From: an uncultured Pseudomonadota bacterium
Lineage (GTDB): Bacteria > Vulcanimicrobiota > Vulcanimicrobiia > Eremiobacterales > Eremiobacteraceae
Reading direction: 5' to 3'
Assembly: GCA_963736005.1 (NCBI GenBank)
Contig: CAVTNB010000001.1
Location: forward strand, 1,440,001-1,504,000
Length of the DNA stretch: 64,000 nt
Positions 9,599-34,790 of this stretch are shown here, one piece after another. The translations under genes and the position numbers were made by a program. The notes below the pieces were generated by a model. It was given only the letters and a program-made list of their open reading frames with translations, was not told the DNA's origin and searched no databases. Numbering within the stretch: position 1 is the first letter of the stretch; every line of letters starts with the position of its first letter.

Positions 9599-10281
9599 TA
9601 GTAGTCGACATCGACCGGAACGACCCGTTGCGCAGTTGCGCCATCAGCCCGGATCGCGGTCACGACTATCTCGAATTGATGCGTAGGAAGTAAACTCGGT
9701 ACGGTGATGGAGAGTGCAAAGGTCCCTGGCGCAACTTTCGGCACGTTGACTTGGTACGTGCCAATGCGCGCCGTGAGGGCCGCTGCGTTGCTGGTCGTGA
9801 GAATGCGCGCCGAGGCGACGTCGCCTGCGTGAACATGGTCGGGCGAGAATGTGACAGACTGGATTTGCACGGGATCGGTGGGCGTCGCGTAGGGAACTCC
9901 TGGCGGAAGATCGGGATGAGCTGAGCGAATCTGAAGGTTCGCTGCTACATTAGGACTCGAGGGGACCATAAGCGTCGGGTAAGACGTTGGCGCCGAGCGG
10001 ACCTGAGGGCCCACGGTTGCAGTCGGCGTCGAGCGGACCTGAAGGTCCGCTGCTACATTCGGGCTCGAACGGGCCGGAAAGTTTGGTGCGGCGCTGGGTT
10101 TCAAGTGGACTTGAAGGGGCGCTGCTGCACGCGGGCTTGAGCGGACCTGAAGGTCCGCTGCTACATTTGGGCTTGAAACGGGATGCGGATGTGAATGCGG
10201 ACGAACAAACAGCACCACCGCGAGCAGCGCCGCCACCACAAGGGCTACGTACATCACGGATCTTCTCGATGAAAGCAGCAC
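9598..10281 (-). CDS. Membrane-anchored hypothetical protein with a linker built from REP-derived 12-aa repeats and a C-terminal beta-rich domain
   Basis: N-terminal TM segment, repeats of SSPNVAADLQVR; the stop overlaps the deoB start (TAATG). Confidence 0.75.
   Translation of the reverse strand: MLLSSRRSVMYVALVVAALLAVVLFVRPHSHPHPVSSPNVAADLQVRSSPRAAAPLQVHLKPSAAPNFPARSSPNVAADLQVRSTPTATVGPQVRSAPTSYPTLMVPSSPNVAANLQIRSAHPDLPPGVPYATPTDPVQIQSVTFSPDHVHAGDVASARILTTSNAAALTARIGTYQVNVPKVAPGTFALSITVPSLLPTHQFEIVVTAIRADGATAQRVVPVDVDY
9923..10166 (-). repeat. 36-bp tandem array (7 units, 108-bp higher-order period) of REP family A inside a CDS
   Basis: GAGCGGACCTGAAGGTCCGCTGCTACAT at 10031 and 10139, a variant at 9923, degenerate units at 9959, 9995, 10067 and 10103. 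Confidence 0.9.
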
Positions 10282-10420: not shown

Positions 10421-13400
10421 GTGGCACAAGAGATCGGCGCAACAATTGTTCGCGGGCTGCGGACTTGGGACAAAATCGGCGATGCGGCTGCTCAGTTGCG
10501 GTTGCACGCGGCGCTCGATATTGTCGGCGCAGCTGCAGCATCCCGACCGGCGCTTGTGTCTGCGCTTTGGACCGAGCTCGGCGGTCAGTTTCTCGTTTGG
10601 TCGGCGAGTCAAGATGGCGCCGACCGGTTTGCCAATGATTGTTCCTTCTATGCAAGCGAGTTTGGGCCGGTTGTGCACACGCTTCGTCCACGCGACGAAC
10701 AGCAAAACGCCCTCGTCAATCCTACCGAGCGCGCTGACCGAATCGCATTCTTGGATTCTCTTGCGTCTGGGGAGCCGGGCATCTTTTGCGTCTCGCATGC
10801 CGCAGCCCGCCAGCCCTTGCCTGCTAGCCAAGACGTTCGCCGGCGCGGCACGACGTTTGCAGACTGGCCGCGAATACAAGTGGGAAGAAACGCTGCGCGA
10901 CCTGGCTGCGCTCGGCTACGAACGAGTCGACGTCGTCAGCGCGGTCGGTGAATACGCCGTGCGAGGCGGCATCATTGACATCTTTCCCGCAACGGCCGAG
11001 TTCCCGGTTCGGCTCGAGTTCTTCGGAGATCGTGTCGAGCAGATCCGAACCTTTGCGATCGTCACGCAACGCTCGCTCGATGAACTCGAGGCGGTTCGCA
11101 TCACCCCTTGGTCCGAAGGTATTTTTGGCGACGAGCAAGCGGCAATTTGGTCCTATGCGCCCGGAGCCGTTCTGGTCATCGACGACCCCGACACGATCGT
11201 CGCAATCGATCGCGGGTTGCAAGTGGCTCGGGAGCAAGCGACGGTTGCCGCAGCGGATCGCGGAGAAGAGATCGAAGAAGATATAGATGTACCAGCGGAC
11301 CTTCAGGTCCGCTCGGCGCCCGATGATGACGAGAGCGAACCTAAAGGTTGGCTGCTACATACTCTAGATAAACTGCAGGATGCAATAGGCGCGCGAGCCG
11401 TCTGCAGCTTCCACACGAGCGCAGTTGCCGCGCACTTAGGTCCGCACAGCAAAAAGAAGATTGAAACGAGCACCCAGATGGCTCCGGCCTTCGGTCGCAG
11501 CATCGAACGCTTCGTCGAGTACACGCGCGCTGCGATCGCCTCGAAAACGATCCTGGCCATCGCGGCGGTCGGATATCGTCGTATCTCGGAGGTCCTCGAG
11601 GAGCACGACGTATCCGCGACGCCCGTGCCTAAGCGCTTGAAATTGCCACCAGAACGCGGTGCTGTCATCTGCGGCGAAGGAATGATCGATGCCGGCTTTG
11701 TCATCCCGTCGCTTGGCCTCGCGGTCATCGGAGACAACGAACTGTATGGACACCCCGCTCGACGGCATAAACGCAGACCCGCCAAGGAAGGCGTGCCGGT
11801 CAGCGTCGCTGATCTCAATCCTGAAGACTACTTGGTGCACGCGCATCATGGCATCGGTCAGTATCTCGGTTTGGAACACATCATCGTGGAAGACGTGGGT
11901 CGCGACTTCATGCAGCTCGCCTACGCGGGCGGCGACCGCCTCTACGTGCCGGTCGATCAAATGCACTTGGTGCGCAAATATGCGGTCGCTGATGGCGCTG
12001 CTCCCCGGCTTTCCAAGATGGGCGGAAGCGACTGGGTGCGCACCCGCTCCCGCGTCCGCGAGGCTGTCGAGCGAATTGCCGAAGGGTTGGTGCGACTGTA
12101 TGCGGCAAGAGAACTCGCCGTCGGCCACGCCTTTGCCCAAGACACGCCGTGGCAAGCCGAACTCGAAGAGTCGTTTCCTTACGACGAAACACCGGATCAA
12201 GCCGAAACGATTCGCGTCGTCAAAGACGACATGGAGCGTCCGCGTCCTATGGACAGACTCGTGTGCGGCGACGTGGGGTACGGAAAGACCGAAGTAGCCG
12301 TTCGCGCAGCGTTCAAAGCTATCATGGATCGCAAGCAGGTGGCATTGCTTGCACCAACGACCGTGCTCGCGGCGCAGCACTTCCGCACGTTTAGCGAACG
12401 CTTCGCTGCCTATCCCGTGACGATCGCACTCCTCTCCCGCTTTCGTTCCAAGGCCGAGCAGAAAGTATCACTCGCCGGCTTAGCTGATGGAAGCGTCGAT
12501 CTTGTCATCGGAACGCATCGGCTACTGCAACGAGACGTGGGCTTCAAACAACTCGGCTTGCTGATCGTCGATGAAGAGCAGCGTTTCGGCGTCATGCACA
12601 AAGAGCGTCTCAAGGAATTGCGTCAATCAGTCGACGTGATGACGCTGTCGGCCACCCCGATCCCACGCACGCTGCATATGGCCATGGCGGGCGTTCGCGA
12701 TCTCTCCCTCATTCAGACGCCCCCGGCCAATCGCGTCTCCATCAAGACGGTGGTCACACCAAGCAGCGATGCGCTCATTTCGAGCGCGCTGACGCAAGAA
12801 CTCGACCGCGGCGGGCAAGTCTATTTCGTGCACAACCGCATCGATACGATCTACGGCGTCGCTGCGGCGCTTGGAGCGCTGGCTCCACGCGCGCGCATCG
12901 GCGTCGGCCACGGGCAAATGCACGGTGCATGAACTCGAAGACATCATGCTGTCGTTTGTGAACGGCGAGATCGACATCTTGGTGTCCACGACGATCATTG
13001 AAAACGGACTCGATATTCCAAACGTCAACACGATCATCGTCAACAACGCAGATCACTTCGGGTTAGCGCAACTCTATCAGCTTCGCGGTCGCGTGGGCCG
13101 CAGCGCTCACCAAGCGTTTGCGTATTTCTTGTACCAGCCGCACCGATCGCTTTCCGAGGTAGCCCAATCGAGACTGGAGGCCATCCGCGAGTTTTCGCAT
13201 TTGGGCTCGGGCTTGCAACTTGCCATGCGCGACCTGGAAATCCGGGGTGCAGGAAATTTGCTGGGCCGCGAGCAGAGCGGCTTCATTGCCGCCGTTGGTT
13301 TCGAGACATACTGCGAGATTTTGCAAGAAGCCGTGGCGCAACGCCGCGGGCAGCCGATCGTCCAAGACGTACCGCCGCCGGTTCTCGACGTGCGGGTGAG

Positions 13401-20699: not shown

Positions 20700-21505
20700 C
20701 GCGGCGCAGCCGCTGTTCGCCGCCAACTGGAAGATGAACAAGACGCCGGCACAGGCGCGCGCGATTTCGTCGCACGCATTCATGGGCCGCCGCGGAGCCG
20801 CTCGCTCGCCGCCGCGGACATCGTGCTGCTCGCGCCGTTCATGTCGACTCGAAGCGTTGCACGCGAGTCTCGCGCCGAGCACGAGTGCGCGATCGGCGCG
20901 CAGGACTGTTACTGGGAACCGCAGGGCGCTACACCGGCGAAATGAGCGCGGCCATGCTCGCGGCCGAGGGCTGCACGTATTGCATCGTCGGCCATTCGGA
21001 GCGACGTCGTTTGTTCGGCGAGACCGATGAGGACGTCGCCCGAAAGTCTCCGCGCTCTTGGCGGCCGGGCGTAACCCCGATCGTGTGCGTCGGCGAGACG
21101 CTCGAGGAAAAGCAGCCGGGCGTGACCGCGCAGCGAGTGGCCTGCGCAGATCGCCGACGGCCTAGGGTCATCTCGACGACGATCAGCGCGCGGAGACGTG
21201 GATCGCCTACGAGCCGATGTGGGCAATCGGCACCGGCCTCTCCGACGATCCCGACGGCGGCGAACGAGACGATCGCCTCATCCGCGCTTGACGCTCGGCG
21301 GACTCTGCCGACGCGCCCGCATCCTCTACGGCGGATCGATGAAGGCCGAGAACGCCGGCGCATACTGCGCGCAGCCGAAATCGACGGCGGACTCGTCGGC
21401 GGCGCGAGCCTCGACCCGCGAGCGTTTTTGACCCTCATCATGAACGGCCTCAAGAAAATGTGGGGCGATCGGAAAATCGCCCCACATCGTAGCGGGCGAC
21501 TGTAA
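20696..21505 (+). CDS. tpiA: Triosephosphate isomerase (frameshifted)
   Basis: [42 protein letters not shown]. Confidence 0.9.
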
Positions 21506-21529: not shown

Positions 21530-23068
21530 ATGACCCTTTCTGATCCGCGCGTCGTTCTGTGCGTGCTCGACGGCTTCGGCATTTCCGACGAGACCGCGCG
21601 GCAACGCGATCGCCGCCGCGAAACTGCCGACGTATCGCGCGATGCTGGCCGCAAATATCCTCACTCCAGATCGGCGCCGCCGCAAGAAGCCGTCGGCTTG
21701 CCGCACGGCCAGCAGGGCAACAGCGAAGTCGGCCACCTCAATCTGGGCGCCGGCCGCGTCGTGCTTGCAAAGCGTCACCCGCATCGACAAGTGCGATCGA
21801 GGACGGAACGTTCGCGCAAAACCCGGCGCTCCAGCAATGCTTCGCGCACGTGAGGCGCACCGGCGGCACGTTCCATCTCCTCGGGCTCGTGTCGCCCGGC
21901 GGCGTGCACTCGTCGATGAAGCATCTGTATGCGCTCATCGACGCGGCAAAAGCGGCCGGCGTGCCGGTGAAAGTCGCGGCATTCCTCGACGGGCGCGACA
22001 CGCCGCCGCATAGCGCCGGCGCGTATCTCGAACGGCTGCAAGCCAAATGCGCGCAAGCCGGGAACGCGTCGATCTCCATGATTTCCGGACGTTACTTCGC
22101 AATGGATCGCGACAAGCGTTGGGAGCGCACAAAGGTTGGCATACGACGCGCTTGTCGAACGGCAAGGCGCTCAGCGCCGCAGGCTCGTCCAAGCGGCGAT
22201 CGATGGAGCATATGCCCGCGGCGAAAGCGACGAGTTTGTCGAAGCCGACGATCATCGGCACGCATCGACCCATCGTCACGACGGCGATGCGTGCTTCTTT
22301 TTCAACTTTCGCCCGACCGAGCACGCCAGCTCACGCGCGCTTTCTCGCAGCCAGATTTCGACGAATTCCCCGTCAAGCAGTTTCGCGATTTTGTTTTCGC
22401 CATCATGACGTTGTACGAGCAAGACTTTACGAATCCGGTAATGTTCGGAAAAATTTTCGAGAAGTGGACGCTGGGCGAAGTTGTCGCGAGGCGGGTTTGC
22501 CACAACTTCGACTGGCGGAGACCGAAAATATGCGCACGTAACCTACTTTTTTTCCGGTGGGCGCGAGGAGCCGTTTGACCTGGAAGACCGGATTCTGGTG
22601 CCGTCGGCGCGTGACGTCGGCACGTACGATCATCTTCCCCAAATGCGGGCACGCGAAATCACCGATAGGGCCGTGGAAGCGATCCGCGTCCGAAACGCTA
22701 TCCGCTGATCGTCATGAACTACGCCAATCCCGACATGGTGGGTCACACGGGTAAGTGGGATGCGATCATCATCGCGCTTGAGGTTGTTGATGAATGTCTC
22801 GACGCGGCTCGAGGCGGCCGTCCTCGAGACCGGCGCAATCATGCTCGTCACCGCAGATCACGGCAATGCGGAGGAAAAGATAGATCTCTCGACCGGCAAA
22901 GAGCTAACCGCCCACACGTGCAATGACGTGCCGCTCATCGCCGTCAGCAACCCAAGACTTGGCGGGCTGAAGAGCGGCGGTAAACTCGCCGACGTCGCTC
23001 CATGCATCTGTCAGATTTTAGACTTGCCACAGCCGGCCGTAATGACCGGTCACTCGCTGCTCACGTAG
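21530..23068 (+). CDS. gpmI: 2,3-bisphosphoglycerate-independent phosphoglycerate mutase (frameshifted)
   Basis: [64 protein letters not shown]. Confidence 0.92.
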
Positions 23069-23074
23069 TCTGCT

Positions 23075-23749
23075 CTATCCCAACCGCCAAAAATCTCCAC
23101 TGAGCCCCAACTCCGCAAACCTCGCCTGCGTTTCTTCCAGGGTGAAGCGCCGCCAGTTTGGGTCGCGTCGGTCGCCACTGTACCATGCGTTGGCAAGTCG
23201 CCAGCATTGGCCGAGCGGAAGCACGGCACCGCGATCGAAGCGCCAATCTTTGCACCATTTCGCAACGTGCTCTTCCGACCGGAAGAGGAGCATGGTCTTT
23301 CAGTTAAAGACGATGTCGTCCCACCATCGCGCCGCAGGAAGAGCGAAATGAGCAATGCGTTCGTCGTCATCAGTACAGTCGTCCGGTGCTTGCAACGTCA
23401 TGGCCGTGCCGCAGCAGCCACATGAAGTTTCAATGCGGGCTTTGCCTCGGAGCATTGCTGCGATGCCCATTGCATCCCAGATGCAGTTGCCATACCAAGA
23501 AAATTGGCCAATGCTCACAAAAAACGGGGTCGGCACTGCCGAGAACGGATTCGCCATGAGGATCTCGCCATTGCGTTGCAAGACGAACATGTGCGCGTCA
23601 CTCAGCCGGCGCAACGCGTCGCGGATATTTGCCTGCGTCGTCCCAGTCGTTGAGACCAGCGTGGAAATCAATGGTACCGTGCCGCCGGCCATGAGCTTTT
23701 CGTAGACCAATCGGCGCAACTCTAAATCTAACGCTTGCAGATCTGCCAT
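23075..23749 (-). CDS. MerB-like organomercurial/organometallic lyase, probable selenoprotein (in-frame TGA at 23300..23302)
   Basis: MANPFSAVPT and WYGNCIWDA (MerB CxxD). ORF 23300..23749 continues in frame through TGA-AAG-ACC into ORF 23075..23293, giving 224 aa. Confidence 0.8.
23270..23287 (-). promoter_or_regulatory. Putative bacterial SECIS element
   Basis: CTCTTCC-GGTC-GGAAGAG: 7-bp perfect stem; the G-leading loop follows 19 nt after the TGA. Confidence 0.7.
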
Positions 23750-23805
23750 ACGCTTTCGTGTTTGACAGTCGCTGCCCCGATCACTCGCGGGTGCAGGAGC
23801 GCGTT

Positions 23806-23832
23806 AGCGGACCTAAAGGTCCGCTGCTACAT
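23806..23832 (-). repeat. REP family A, intergenic copy
   Basis: AGCGGACCTAAAGGTCCGCTGCTACAT (GTAG on the minus strand). Confidence 0.9.
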
Positions 23833-23970
23833 CCGCGACTTGACCGACTACACGTCTGCGGCGACACGAACGTAGCGCTCGTTCACAATTTGGCCATAAC
23901 TTGAGCAGCGGCGCGGTCAAACATCGCCTATAAGGTTAGCCTCCCACGAATCTTACGGAGGCTTTCTTCG

Positions 23971-24654
23971 ATGAATACTCCGGATGCGCTGACGTCGGCT
24001 GCCAGCGGCATGCGCACGCAGGCCGCCGAGCTCGACACCGTCGCTTTCAACCTTGCCAACGCTTCAACCGTGGGGTATCGTTCGCGCACCGAGGCATTTT
24101 CCCAATTCGGTGAGGGCCTTGTGGCGCACGCGGGCACAAGCCAAGCACAAGGCCCATTGCGTCACACCGGCATTGCAACAGATCTCGCGCTGGTTGGCCA
24201 AGGATACTTTGCCGTTGCAACTCCCCAAGGCGTGCGCTATACGCGCGATGGGCGCCTGAGCCCAGACCCGCGGGGTTACTTGCGCGACGCTGCAGGCAAT
24301 CCAGTCCTCGGATCCTTAGGGCCCGCTCGCTTCCCACAGAGCGCGCGCGTTCTCGAAGATGGGCGAATCATCGCCCACGGTGCGATCGTCGACCGTCTGC
24401 GCATCGTAACCTTTGATTCGCCGTGTTCGGCCCTCGATGAGAATCTTTTTGCGGCGCCTGTCGAGTCGGTGCCGAAGCGATCGTCTGCGGCTGTGCGCGC
24501 CGGATATCTTGAGGATTCCGGAGTTGATGCTGTCGCAGAGATGACCTCGCTGATTTCCGCGGAACGCGCATTCGAAGCAAATCAAAAATCCATTCAACGT
24601 ACCGACGAATCGCTCCGCAGACTGGTCACCGAAATCCCGCTGGTGCGGCCATGA
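23971..24654 (+). CDS. Flagellar basal-body rod protein (FlgF/FlhO-like)
   Basis: NLANASTVGY, TDLALVGQGYFAV, YTRDG, GYLEDSGVDAVAEM..RAFEANQK. Confidence 0.85.
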   Translation: MNTPDALTSAASGMRTQAAELDTVAFNLANASTVGYRSRTEAFSQFGEGLVAHAGTSQAQGPLRHTGIATDLALVGQGYFAVATPQGVRYTRDGRLSPDPRGYLRDAAGNPVLGSLGPARFPQSARVLEDGRIIAHGAIVDRLRIVTFDSPCSALDENLFAAPVESVPKRSSAAVRAGYLEDSGVDAVAEMTSLISAERAFEANQKSIQRTDESLRRLVTEIPLVRP

Positions 24655-34376: not shown

Positions 34377-34705
34377 CAACGGTAATCGTCGCGCATCAAC
34401 CTGCTGACCGTGCGTCCCTGTCTCTTCGAGCCGGCGAAGCAGTGGTGGTCGGAGGTCGCGACGACGAGTGGCCCGCATTTATGTGGTGCTCATGCGCCAA
34501 GGGCGAGGCGTGGATCCCAGACGCTTACATGACGATTGAGGCAAACGTGGGGAAGATACAGCGCGACTACTCGTCGCGAGAGCTGGCAGTCGCTTCAGGT
34601 GACTCGGTGAGCGTGCTCGAGCGATGTGGCGGGTGGGCGTTTTGCGACTTCAACAACGAGCAGGGTTGGATTCCCGAGCGGTGCTTGGGGGGTGAGCGGA
34701 CCTAA
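34373..34705 (+). CDS. Tandem SH3-domain protein
   Basis: GTGA overlap; GEAWIP, RDYSSRELAV..GD.V, GWIP. The stop lies in a REP loop. Confidence 0.75.
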   Translation: MTTVIVAHQPADRASLSLRAGEAVVVGGRDDEWPAFMWCSCAKGEAWIPDAYMTIEANVGKIQRDYSSRELAVASGDSVSVLERCGGWAFCDFNNEQGWIPERCLGGERT

Positions 34706-34790
34706 AGGTCCGCTGCTACATGGACCACGCTCGCGAATAAAATTCGCGCGACTACATGGATCTTGGGGCGATTTTCCAATCGCCCCTTAC
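34694..34790 (-). repeat. REP cluster C-B-A, head to tail on the minus strand
   Basis: GAGCGGACCTAAAGGTCCGCTGCTACAT; CGCTCGCGAATAAAATTCGCGCGACTAC; GGGGCGATTTTCCAATCGCCCCTTAC. Confidence 0.92.

What the first reader, a model, noticed from the sequence alone, without database searches (positions are those of the whole stretch)
23075..23749. Hidden selenoprotein: MerB-like lyase with in-frame UGA at the catalytic Cys and a SECIS-like hairpin
Seen: two ORFs (149 and 72 aa) are in the same frame and joined as WWDDIVFN-TGA-KT-MLLFRSEEHV. A perfect 7-bp stem with a GGUC loop begins its loop after 19 nt. Known: MerB uses a CxxD pair (here NCIWD) and a distal Cys preceding the HFF-type strand, which corresponds to the TGA position; the E. 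coli fdhF SECIS has a GGUC-containing loop just downstream of UGA; Sec-containing MerB-like proteins such as SaoL have been reported. Inference: a 224-aa Sec-dependent organometal lyase standing alone without mer genes, so its substrate is unknown. Standard annotation would split it.
Basis: partly seen in the sequence, partly recalled or inferred. Interest (0 to 1): 0.82.

Follow-up and report, generated by a model that had tools for sequence, protein, structure and literature searches.

The report
Overlooked selenocysteine MerB-like lyase gene
The apparent stop codon inside this gene almost certainly encodes selenocysteine at the catalytic site of a relative of the methylmercury-cleaving enzyme MerB, and the same hidden gene occurs in many soil bacteria, where databases record it as a truncated protein.

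Summary
Observation confirmed and interpretation supported. On the minus strand, 23749-23075 is one 224-codon frame with a single TGA (23300-23302). A perfect 7-bp hairpin with a GGUC loop follows at 23270-23287.

- **Conservation:** all 92 orthologous loci examined have TGA at this column: 12 of 12 in this genome and its relatives, and 80 of 80 from eight or more phyla.
- **Hairpin:** it is conserved with compensatory changes.
- **Family:** Pfam MerB spans the TGA. An AlphaFold model (pLDDT 96.9) hits only MerB and MerB2 structures.
- **Active site:** profile alignment puts C89, D92 and U150 on MerB Cys96, Asp99 and Cys159.
- **Sec machinery:** the genome has selA, selB, selD (itself with an in-frame TGA) and tRNA-Sec.
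- **Cys relatives:** homologues with Cys at the column exist.

It is not SaoL, the one published MerB-like selenoprotein: 29.7 bits against a cut-off of 140, no Cys-Sec dipeptide, no conserved neighbours. It is not canonical MerB either. No MerA was found in this genome. Substrate and activity are inferred only.

This scan noted the same clade earlier on other genomes (e1-1167283, e1-1414999). Verdict: a real, mis-annotated selenoprotein and a new variant of a known kind.

The parts
23075..23749 (-). Complete coding sequence of the selenoprotein: 224 codons plus the TAG stop at 23075-23077. ATG start at 23747-23749.
   Evidence: Orthologues are colinear over residues 1-224.
23300..23302 (-). 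In-frame TGA, read as selenocysteine U150. It aligns with the catalytic Cys159 of MerB.
   Evidence: TGA in 92 of 92 loci. Aligned to MerB2 and MerB Cys159. Unchanged in an independent contig.
23270..23287 (-). SECIS-like hairpin: 7-bp stem with a GGUC loop at 23277-23280. Loop at positions 23-26 counted from the U of UGA.
   Evidence: covariation; same loop letters as E. coli fdhF, and the same spacing to within 1 nt.
23483..23485 (-). Cys89 codon (TGC), equivalent to MerB Cys96.
   Evidence: Invariant in 91 of 91 rows of A3. Aligned to Cys96.
23474..23476 (-). Asp92 codon (GAT), equivalent to MerB Asp99, the proton donor.
   Evidence: Asp in 89 of 89 distinct Sec forms. Aligned to Asp99.
23411..23422 (-). 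Cys110-x-x-Cys113 motif. Cys110 aligns with the buried structural Cys117 of MerB. Cys113 is an extra cysteine of this clade.
   Evidence: Cys110 in 89 of 89 and Cys113 in 87 of 89 distinct Sec forms. Aligned to Cys117.
23180..23545 (-). MerB catalytic domain (Pfam PF03243), residues 69-190, running across the TGA.
   Evidence: 93 bits against a gathering score of 27, profile positions 1-125 of 126.
23570..23749 (-). N-terminal three-helix, winged-helix-like domain, about residues 1-60, as in MerB and MerB2.
   Evidence: Helices 6-20, 28-35 and 39-51 in the model. Aligned to the MerB2 N-terminus. The GntR match is weak: 15 bits, below its cut-off.
23078..23188 (-). C-terminal extension, residues 188-224, beyond the part aligned to solved MerB structures. 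It carries conserved W189, D193, R194, W199, F220 and W221.
   Evidence: The MerB alignments end at about profile position 181-192.

Best explanation
**What it is.** Window 23749-23075 (minus strand) is one gene for a 224-residue selenoprotein of the MerB (alkylmercury lyase, PF03243) superfamily.

**How the codon is read (steps inferred from the bacterial Sec pathway).**
- The ribosome reaches UGA at codon 150.
- The hairpin that starts 12 nt downstream, with a GGUC apical loop, recruits SelB carrying Sec-tRNA(Sec).
- Selenocysteine is inserted and translation continues for 74 more codons.

**Shown here.**
- The codon, the hairpin and the reading frame are conserved.
- The fold is MerB-like.
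- Cys89, Asp92 and Sec150 sit at the columns of the MerB catalytic triad Cys96, Asp99 and Cys159.
- The Sec machinery is present in the genome.

**Inferred mechanism, by analogy with MerB.** Cys89 and the selenolate of Sec150 would bind the metal or metalloid of an organometal(loid) substrate. That weakens the carbon-metal bond, and Asp92 protonates the leaving carbon. The bound metal would then be handed on, possibly by way of the clade-specific Cys110-x-x-Cys113.

**My odds.**
- About 0.95 that it is a true selenoprotein of this superfamily.
- About 0.5 that it is a carbon-metal(loid) lyase.
- About 0.3 that an organomercurial is the natural substrate.
For: **Frame and family**
- One frame with a single TGA.
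- Pfam MerB scores 93 bits (gathering 27) over residues 69-190, across the TGA.

**Conservation of the codon**
- 12 of 12 full-length matches in this genome and 11 relatives (36-84% identity) hold exactly one TGA, at the same column.
- 80 of 80 further loci do too. Their records are titled Vulcanimicrobiota, Acidobacteriota, Chloroflexota, Gemmatimonadota, Actinomycetota, Myxococcota, Dormiibacterota, Planctomycetota and Calditrichota.
- Four of the 80 encode proteins identical to four of the relatives and are probably the same genomes.

**Hairpin covariation**
- Pair 27-40 is CG in 74 rows, GC in 13 and UA in 1, with none unpaired.
- Pair 31-36 switches to UA or AU through a synonymous Ser codon.
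- No shuffle of 500 reached the observed score.

**RNA-level constraint**
- The peptide over the hairpin, FRSE, is kept in 78 of 89 distinct Sec forms.
- It is kept in only 2 of 37 Cys forms.

**Sec machinery**
- selA scores 520 bits, selB 302.6, selD 367.4 (with its own in-frame TGA) and tRNA-Sec 71.6. All are over their cut-offs.
- ARAGORN calls tRNA-SeC with anticodon TCA.

**Structure**
- The AlphaFold2 model has pLDDT 96.9 and pTM 0.92.
- All 11 Foldseek PDB matches with E <= 0.001 are MerB or MerB2.
- The profile alignment places C89 on C96, D92 on D99, C110 on C117 and U150 on C159.

**Cys homologues**
- 36 of 40 full-length relatives, plus P0084, have Cys at the column.
- Sec and Cys forms are interleaved on the tree.

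**Comparison and mechanism**
- E. coli fdhF has GGTC at loop positions 22-25. Here GGTC is at 23-26.
- The MerB mechanism was taken from passages of PMC10114901.
Against: - **No experimental evidence.** No RNA run is listed and there is no proteomic or selenium-labelling evidence.
- **Single-sequence fold.** The hairpin is not exceptional on this sequence alone: z = -0.76, and 40 of 200 shuffles fold at least as well.
- **Rfam.** No Rfam family matched.
- **Scores against named families.** They are far below the curated cut-offs for canonical MerB (35.3 against 193, and 28.4 against 200) and for SaoL (29.7 against 140). Activity therefore cannot be transferred by equivalence.
- **No partner genes.**
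  - No MerA scores over its cut-off in this genome, which is 84% complete: best 367.5 bits against 454.45.
  - No neighbour is conserved.
  - A mercury-detoxifying role thus lacks its usual partner.
- **Product release.** A selenolate would bind Hg(II) very tightly, which could hinder release of the product. This is inference.
- **selA in one carrier.** G019 (96% complete, 370 contigs) carries the gene, but no selA was found in it.
- **Assembly quality.** The window shows frame breaks in neighbouring genes. Its sequence alone would be weak evidence.
Confidence: 0.8

Rival explanations
1. It is a true selenoprotein with the MerB fold, but it is not a lyase. The Cys89/Sec150 pair, with Cys110-x-x-Cys113, would act as a metal-binding or metal-transfer site, or as a selenenylsulfide redox centre.
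For: - Most known selenoproteins are redox enzymes (abstract of PMC9312934, as shown in the listing).
- The clade has an extra, nearly invariant CxxC.
- Cys-form relatives often replace the Asp with Cys (20 of 37), which looks more like a metal or redox site than an acid catalyst.
- No mer genes lie nearby.
- A MerB D99S mutant binds copper (passage of PMC10114901).
Against: - All 89 distinct Sec forms keep Asp92, the proton donor that defines the lyase chemistry of MerB.
- Cys110 aligns with the buried structural Cys117 of MerB rather than with an active-site residue.
Confidence: 0.3
2. The TGA is a real stop. The locus would then be a broken gene, two separate small genes, or a sequencing error in an error-prone assembly.
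For: - The assembly has frame breaks in gpmI next door, which is split into five ORFs in alternating frames, and in tuf.
- Gene callers split this gene everywhere: 118 of the 120 best database homologues cover at most 67% of the query.
Against: - TGA sits at the same column in 92 of 92 loci across many phyla, with the downstream 74 codons conserved in frame.
- An independent contig has the same codon.
- The hairpin shows covariation.
- The confident single-domain model needs both halves.
Confidence: 0.01
3. The TGA is decoded as another amino acid, either Trp or Gly under a variant genetic code or by near-cognate read-through, rather than as selenocysteine.
For: Four database homologues (P0006, P0122, P0129, P0148) are recorded with Trp at this column.
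Against: - Conserved genes of this genome show no in-frame TGA: selA and selB and nine MerA-like matches. TGA is therefore not a general sense codon here.
- The full Sec machinery and a SECIS-type hairpin are present.
- The Trp forms keep FRSE or FRSD, Asp92 and the CxxC, like the Sec forms. This fits TGA translated under code 4 by a gene caller. That is an inference: their DNA could not be fetched.
Confidence: 0.03

Closest known systems
SaoL (NCBIfam NF040728), the MerB-like organometallic lyase selenoprotein of the SAO locus (Haft and Gwadz, bioRxiv 10.1101/2022.07.06.499078; passages read)
   Same: - It belongs to the MerB superfamily (PF03243).
- Its Sec aligns with a mercury-binding active-site Cys of MerB.
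- Databases routinely truncate it at the TGA.
- Rare Cys variants exist.
   Different: - The HMM score is 29.7 bits against a cut-off of 140, and the match covers only residues 33-122. None of the 91 members does better than E = 2.7e-17.
- There is no Cys-Sec dipeptide. The residue before Sec is Thr in 63, Asn in 18, Ser in 4 and Ala in 4 of 89.
- No conserved nine-gene neighbourhood was seen.
- The records that carry it are titled soil and aquatic phyla. According to the preprint, SaoL occurs only in anaerobes, mostly Firmicutes.
Canonical organomercurial lyase MerB (R831b; PDB 3F0O, 3F0P) and MerB2 of Bacillus megaterium (PDB 5C17)
   Same: - The fold matches: Foldseek probability 1.00, TM 0.54-0.66.
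- The N-terminal helical domain is followed by a catalytic core.
- Cys96, Asp99, Cys117 and Cys159 are matched by C89, D92, C110 and U150.
   Different: - Sec replaces Cys159.
- Identity is about 16-20%.
- Scores are far below the NCBIfam cut-offs.
- There is an extra Cys113 and a C-terminal extension of about 35 residues.
- There is no mer operon nearby, and no MerA in the genome.
E. coli fdhF SECIS element
   Same: - The apical loop letters are GGUC.
- The loop lies at positions 22-25 in fdhF and at 23-26 here, counted from the U of UGA.
- The element lies inside the coding sequence, immediately after the UGA.
   Different: - The stem here is a plain 7-bp helix, without the longer interrupted lower stem that RNAfold draws for fdhF.
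- Binding by SelB was not tested.

Membership tests
Bacterial selenoprotein gene (UGA recoded as Sec) | In-frame UGA conserved in orthologues, with the coding frame conserved downstream | tested here: met
   TGA at the same column in 92 of 92 loci. The 74 codons downstream are conserved.
Bacterial selenoprotein gene (UGA recoded as Sec) | SECIS stem-loop shortly downstream of the UGA, with G and U in the apical loop | tested here: met
   Seven-bp stem with a GGUC loop at positions 23-26. 94.3% of cells are paired and covariation exceeds all 500 shuffles. Loop letters and spacing match E. coli fdhF to within 1 nt. The single-sequence energy is not exceptional.
Bacterial selenoprotein gene (UGA recoded as Sec) | selA, selB, selD and tRNA-Sec present in the genome | tested here: met
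   All four score over their curated cut-offs. ARAGORN finds tRNA-SeC with anticodon TCA.
Bacterial selenoprotein gene (UGA recoded as Sec) | Homologues with Cys at the Sec column | tested here: met
   P0084 and 36 of 40 full-length representatives have Cys there.
Bacterial selenoprotein gene (UGA recoded as Sec) | Selenium shown in the protein | not testable with these tools
   This needs 75Se labelling or mass spectrometry.
MerB superfamily (Pfam PF03243) | Score above the Pfam gathering threshold | tested here: met
   93 bits against 27, profile positions 1-125 of 126.
MerB superfamily (Pfam PF03243) | MerB fold | tested here: met
   Model pLDDT 96.9. The top 11 PDB matches are all MerB or MerB2.
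MerB superfamily (Pfam PF03243) | Catalytic Cys96, Asp99 and Cys159 | tested here: met
   C89 and D92 are present, and Sec150 stands in place of Cys159. All three are kept in 89 of 89 distinct Sec forms.
MerB superfamily (Pfam PF03243) | Carbon-mercury bond protonolysis | not testable with these tools
   This needs an enzyme assay.
Canonical MerB (NCBIfam NF009710, NF033555) | Score over the curated equivalog cut-off | tested here: not met
   35.3 bits against 193, and 28.4 against 200.
Canonical MerB (NCBIfam NF009710, NF033555) | Association with mer genes (merA and others) | tested here: not met
   The neighbours are gpmI and flagellar rod genes. No MerA scores over its cut-off in the 84%-complete genome.
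SaoL (NCBIfam NF040728) | Score over the curated cut-off | tested here: not met
   29.7 bits against 140. The best E-value among the 91 members is 2.7e-17.
SaoL (NCBIfam NF040728) | Cys-Sec (CU) dipeptide | tested here: not met
   The residue before Sec is Thr, Asn, Ser or Ala, and never Cys, in 89 distinct Sec forms.
SaoL (NCBIfam NF040728) | Conserved nine-gene SAO neighbourhood | tested here: not met
   No neighbour family recurs in more than 11 of 80 loci. The individual Sao family models were not searched for.

The most novel reading that the evidence does not exclude
This clade is a widespread, mer-independent, selenium-dependent organometal lyase of soil and freshwater bacteria. The carriers seen belong to Eremiobacterota, Acidobacteriota, Chloroflexota, Gemmatimonadota, Actinomycetota and other phyla. 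It would demethylate methylmercury, or cleave another natural organometal(loid). Surveys of merB would have missed it, because gene callers cut it at the catalytic codon and the required Cys159 appears to be absent. If so, part of the unexplained environmental methylmercury degradation would have a genetic marker and would depend on selenium supply.
Probability: 0.3. Interest if true: 0.85.

Novelty: new variant of a known kind. Interest (0 to 1): 0.66.

Why it matters
- **Published background.** Sec-containing MerB relatives are known only from the SaoL family of anaerobes. Two reviews of prokaryotic selenoproteins list only that entry under MerB (passages).
- **What is new here.**
  - A second, sequence-distinct Sec clade is much more widely spread.
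  - It is systematically truncated in databases.
  - No NCBIfam model covers it.
- **Mercury surveys.**
  - In the passages read, the merB survey of PMC8261052 dwells on the essential Cys96, Asp99 and Cys159.
  - Its table lists no MerB for Acidobacteria.
  - I infer that truncated forms lacking the third residue would be missed.
- **If it is an active lyase.** It would link the selenium and mercury (or other organometal) cycles in soils, and give a testable candidate for mer-independent demethylation.
- **At the least.** Annotation pipelines need a corrected reference for this family.

Tried and rejected
- **Rfam.** A scan of 23150-23400 at E <= 10 gave only a chance snoRNA match.
- **Promoter and terminator scan.** No promoter-like site in 22950-24000. 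The one terminator-like site lies inside the gene and is within chance expectation.
- **Expression.** No RNA holder is listed among the sequencing runs.
- **Neighbourhood.**
  - I clustered all ORFs of at least 90 aa in the 80 loci.
  - Only the gene itself and ORFs overlapping it in other frames or on the other strand were widespread (in 80, 66, 63, 45 and 34 loci).
  - The next family occurred in 11 of 80 loci, all of them closely related Acidobacteriota.
- **Search with the C-terminal part.** Residues 135-224 found 1 protein among 21 candidates: P0122, with Trp at the column.
- **Trp-form records.**
  - P0006, P0122, P0129 and P0148 could not be resolved.
- **Co-occurrence with selA.** It does not discriminate, because 58 of 61 relatives have selA.
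- **First large alignment.**
  - It stopped on an extra stop codon in L090.
  - I left out L090, and also L087 (which has a long insertion), and repeated it.
- **Not consulted.** No supplementary files were opened. The alignments supplementary to the SaoL preprint could show whether any member of this clade was already included.

Full report
**1. The observation**

On the minus strand, the ORF listing gives a 149-aa ORF (23300-23749, its stop included) and a 72-aa ORF (23075-23293) in the same frame. Read with TGA=U, the stretch 23749-23075 is one frame of 224 residues. Its only internal stop is TGA at 23300-23302...WWDDIVFN-U-KT-MLLFRSEEHV....

Twelve bases after the TGA begins CTCTTCC-GGTC-GGAAGAG, at 23287-23270. 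This is a perfect 7-bp stem.

Folded alone, this hairpin is not statistically unusual: z = -0.76, and 40 of 200 shuffles fold at least as well. The single sequence proves little by itself.

**2. Conservation of the codon**

I searched 61 genomes, this one and 60 relatives, with the read-through protein. Thirteen genomes had a match.
- Twelve matches are full-length, with 36-100% identity, and each contains exactly one TGA.
- The thirteenth is a fragment at a contig end.
- In all twelve the TGA is at the same column.

The best 80 loci were kept. Their records are titled Vulcanimicrobiota/Eremiobacteraceae, Acidobacteriota, Chloroflexota, Gemmatimonadota, Actinomycetota, Myxococcota, Dormiibacterota, Phycisphaerae and Calditrichia.

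All 80 have TGA at the column.
- Seventy-nine of the 80 matches hold that TGA as their only stop.
- L090 has one further stop.
- Four of the 80 encode proteins identical to four of the relatives and are probably the same genomes.

An independent public run holds a 10,196-nt contig that covers 23072-23800 with 24 differences. None is at 23300-23302.

**3. The hairpin**

I aligned 92 sixty-base stretches, of which 88 are distinct, and counted pairs for the 7-bp helix.
- 94.3% of cells are paired. Shuffles give 86.7%, and slid partners give 40-57%.
- 29 cells changed on both sides, against 4.6 expected.
- The covariation score is 0.226 against 0.104.
- No shuffle of 500 reached the observed values.
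- Pair 27-40 is CG in 74 rows, GC in 13 and UA in 1, and is never unpaired.
- The closing pair changes to UA or AU through the synonymous third base of a Ser codon.

The peptide laid over the hairpin, FRSE, is present in 78 of 89 distinct Sec forms but in only 2 of 37 Cys forms. The constraint therefore looks to be on the RNA rather than on the protein.

As a control I read fdhF of E. coli K-12. Its in-frame TGA is at codon 140, and RNAfold puts an apical loop GGTC at positions 22-25 counted from the T of TGA. In the window the loop GGTC is at 23-26.

Rfam has nothing for this stretch.

**4. Sec machinery**

| Component | Place in the genome | Score | Cut-off |
|---|---|---|---|
| selA | C2:71880-73214 | 520 bits | 267.9 |
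| selB | C2:74044-75909 | 302.6 bits | 242.25 |
| selD | C1:2000550-2001494 | 367.4 bits | 125 |
| tRNA-Sec | C2:124341-124433 | 71.6 bits | 47 (gathering) |

- selD is itself interrupted by one in-frame TGA.
- ARAGORN calls the tRNA tRNA-SeC with anticodon TCA.
- The selD TGA is followed by its own hairpin.

selA was found in 58 of the 61 genomes and in 12 of the 13 carriers. It was not found in G019. This tally includes three unpublished genomes, none of which carries the gene.

Other conserved genes of the genome show no in-frame TGA. TGA is therefore not a general sense codon here.

**5. What the protein is**

Sequence matches:
- Pfam MerB (PF03243) matches residues 69-190, across the TGA, at 93 bits against a gathering score of 27.
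- NCBIfam gives only weak matches, all far below the cut-offs:

| Model | Family | Score | Cut-off |
|---|---|---|---|
| NF009710 | MerB | 35.3 bits | 193 |
| NF040728 | SaoL | 29.7 bits | 140 |
| NF033555 | MerB | 28.4 bits | 200 |

- All 91 members of the family alignment behave alike.

Structure:
- An AlphaFold2 model built on 91 sequences has pLDDT 96.9 and pTM 0.92.
- Foldseek against the PDB gives 11 matches with E <= 0.001, all MerB or MerB2. The best is 5c17, with E = 1.6e-11 and TM 0.62-0.66.

Active-site columns: a profile of the family aligned to MerB chains puts C89 on Cys96, D92 on Asp99, C110 on Cys117 and U150 on Cys159.
- According to passages of PMC10114901, Cys96, Asp99 and Cys159 are essential in MerB. 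The two thiolates bind the mercury and Asp99 protonates the leaving carbon. Cys117 is buried and structural.
- In 89 distinct Sec forms, C89, D92 and C110 are invariant and C113 is present in 87.

The clade also has a C-terminal extension of about 35 residues, with conserved tryptophans. It is modelled with confidence.

**6. Relatives with cysteine**

Among the best 120 database homologues, 118 cover at most 67% of the query. These are proteins of about 127-170 aa that end at the TGA (one, P0091, is 221 aa through a long N-terminal extension). The sources name them 'hypothetical protein' or 'Alkylmercury lyase'.

A Cys form, P0084 (40% identical), was used to search the 50%-identity representatives.
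- 1,753 proteins matched at E <= 0.001, and 674 at E <= 1e-10.
- From the 150 listed I fetched 40 whose length and matched range showed them to be full-length.
- At the column, 36 have Cys, 2 Trp, 1 His and 1 Ala.

On a quick maximum-likelihood tree of 133 rows, Sec and Cys forms are interleaved. Parsimony needs eight changes of the Sec label, and at least two are forced by well-supported branches. This fits repeated exchange between Sec and Cys.

Cys forms often carry Cys instead of Asp at position 92 (20 of 37), and many lack the CxxC.

The four Trp forms resemble Sec forms in every other respect. They probably reflect TGA translated under another code by a gene caller. I could not check their DNA.

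**7. Context**

The gene lies between gpmI (convergent) and the flagellar rod genes flgF/flgG (divergent).
- No MerA scores over its cut-off in the genome, which is 84% complete.
- Only one MerB-family gene was found in the genome.
- Across the 80 loci no neighbouring family recurs beyond 11 loci of closely related genomes.

The gene stands alone.

**8. How it most likely works**

*Shown:*
- a conserved UGA at the catalytic column;
- a covarying hairpin of the fdhF type;
- the Sec machinery;
- a MerB fold with the triad intact.

*Inferred:*
- SelB-dependent insertion of Sec.
- A MerB-type protonolysis, in which Cys89 and the Sec150 selenolate bind the metal and Asp92 donates the proton.

The substrate is open.
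- The invariant Asp favours lyase chemistry.
- The missing MerA, the tight mercury-selenium bond and the extra CxxC leave room for another metal or metalloid, or for a binding or redox role.

**9. Comparison with what is known**

The one published MerB-like selenoprotein family is SaoL (Haft and Gwadz preprint, passages read).
- It has a Cys-Sec dipeptide.
- It lies in a nine-gene SAO locus.
- It occurs in about 50 anaerobic species.

Two reviews of prokaryotic selenoproteins list only that entry under MerB (passages). Three full-text searches turned up no description of this clade. Those searches cover open PubMed Central papers and bioRxiv only.

The present clade fails all three SaoL tests: HMM score, dipeptide and neighbourhood. 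It also fails the canonical MerB cut-offs. It is a member of the MerB superfamily and of the class of bacterial selenoproteins, but of neither named family.

This scan had already noted the same clade in two other genomes, with the same reading. That is not independent evidence.

**10. Verdict**

This is a real selenoprotein gene that is mis-annotated everywhere. It is a new variant of a known kind. The biochemical function is untested.

Noticed in passing
window 21530-23068 (+), and 20885-21505 (+): The phosphoglycerate mutase gene gpmI is spread over five ORFs in alternating frames. Their Pfam matches cover successive parts of the Metalloenzyme and iPGM_N profiles. The triosephosphate isomerase ORF covers only profile positions 67-139 of 245. 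EF-Tu-like genes elsewhere in the genome are also split. Either the assembly carries many indel errors or these genes are decaying. This may explain the 84% completeness estimate.
   Followed up: partly
G000:C1:2000550-2001494 (locus L011): The selD gene of this genome has an in-frame TGA in the motif ...SSCAG-U-ASK..., so SelD itself would be a selenoprotein. A 6-bp hairpin follows about 17 nt downstream.
   Followed up: partly
window 23807-23824; also 10033-10050, 10141-10158, 11295-11312 and 34696-34713: A palindromic element, GCGGACC-NNNN-GGTCCGC, occurs five times in the window against 0.05 expected. One copy lies in the intergenic region upstream of the selenoprotein gene. In a related strain's contig a similar element appears just downstream of the gene (loose ends). 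It looks like a REP-type repeat.
   Followed up: partly
loci L024/L036, L025/L035, L023/L034 and L028/L066: Proteins identical to those of this genome's close relatives appear in public records whose titles disagree at phylum level ('Proteobacteria bacterium', 'Candidatus Acidiferrales bacterium', 'Vulcanimicrobiota bacterium'). Some record titles are probably mislabelled.
   Followed up: no
proteins P0126, P0127, P0130-P0133 and others: Many Cys-form relatives of this clade carry C-x-x-C in place of the C-x-x-D of MerB (Cys at position 92 in 20 of 37) and lack Cys110 and Cys113. They may form a separate, uncharacterised MerB-like subfamily with different chemistry.
   Followed up: no
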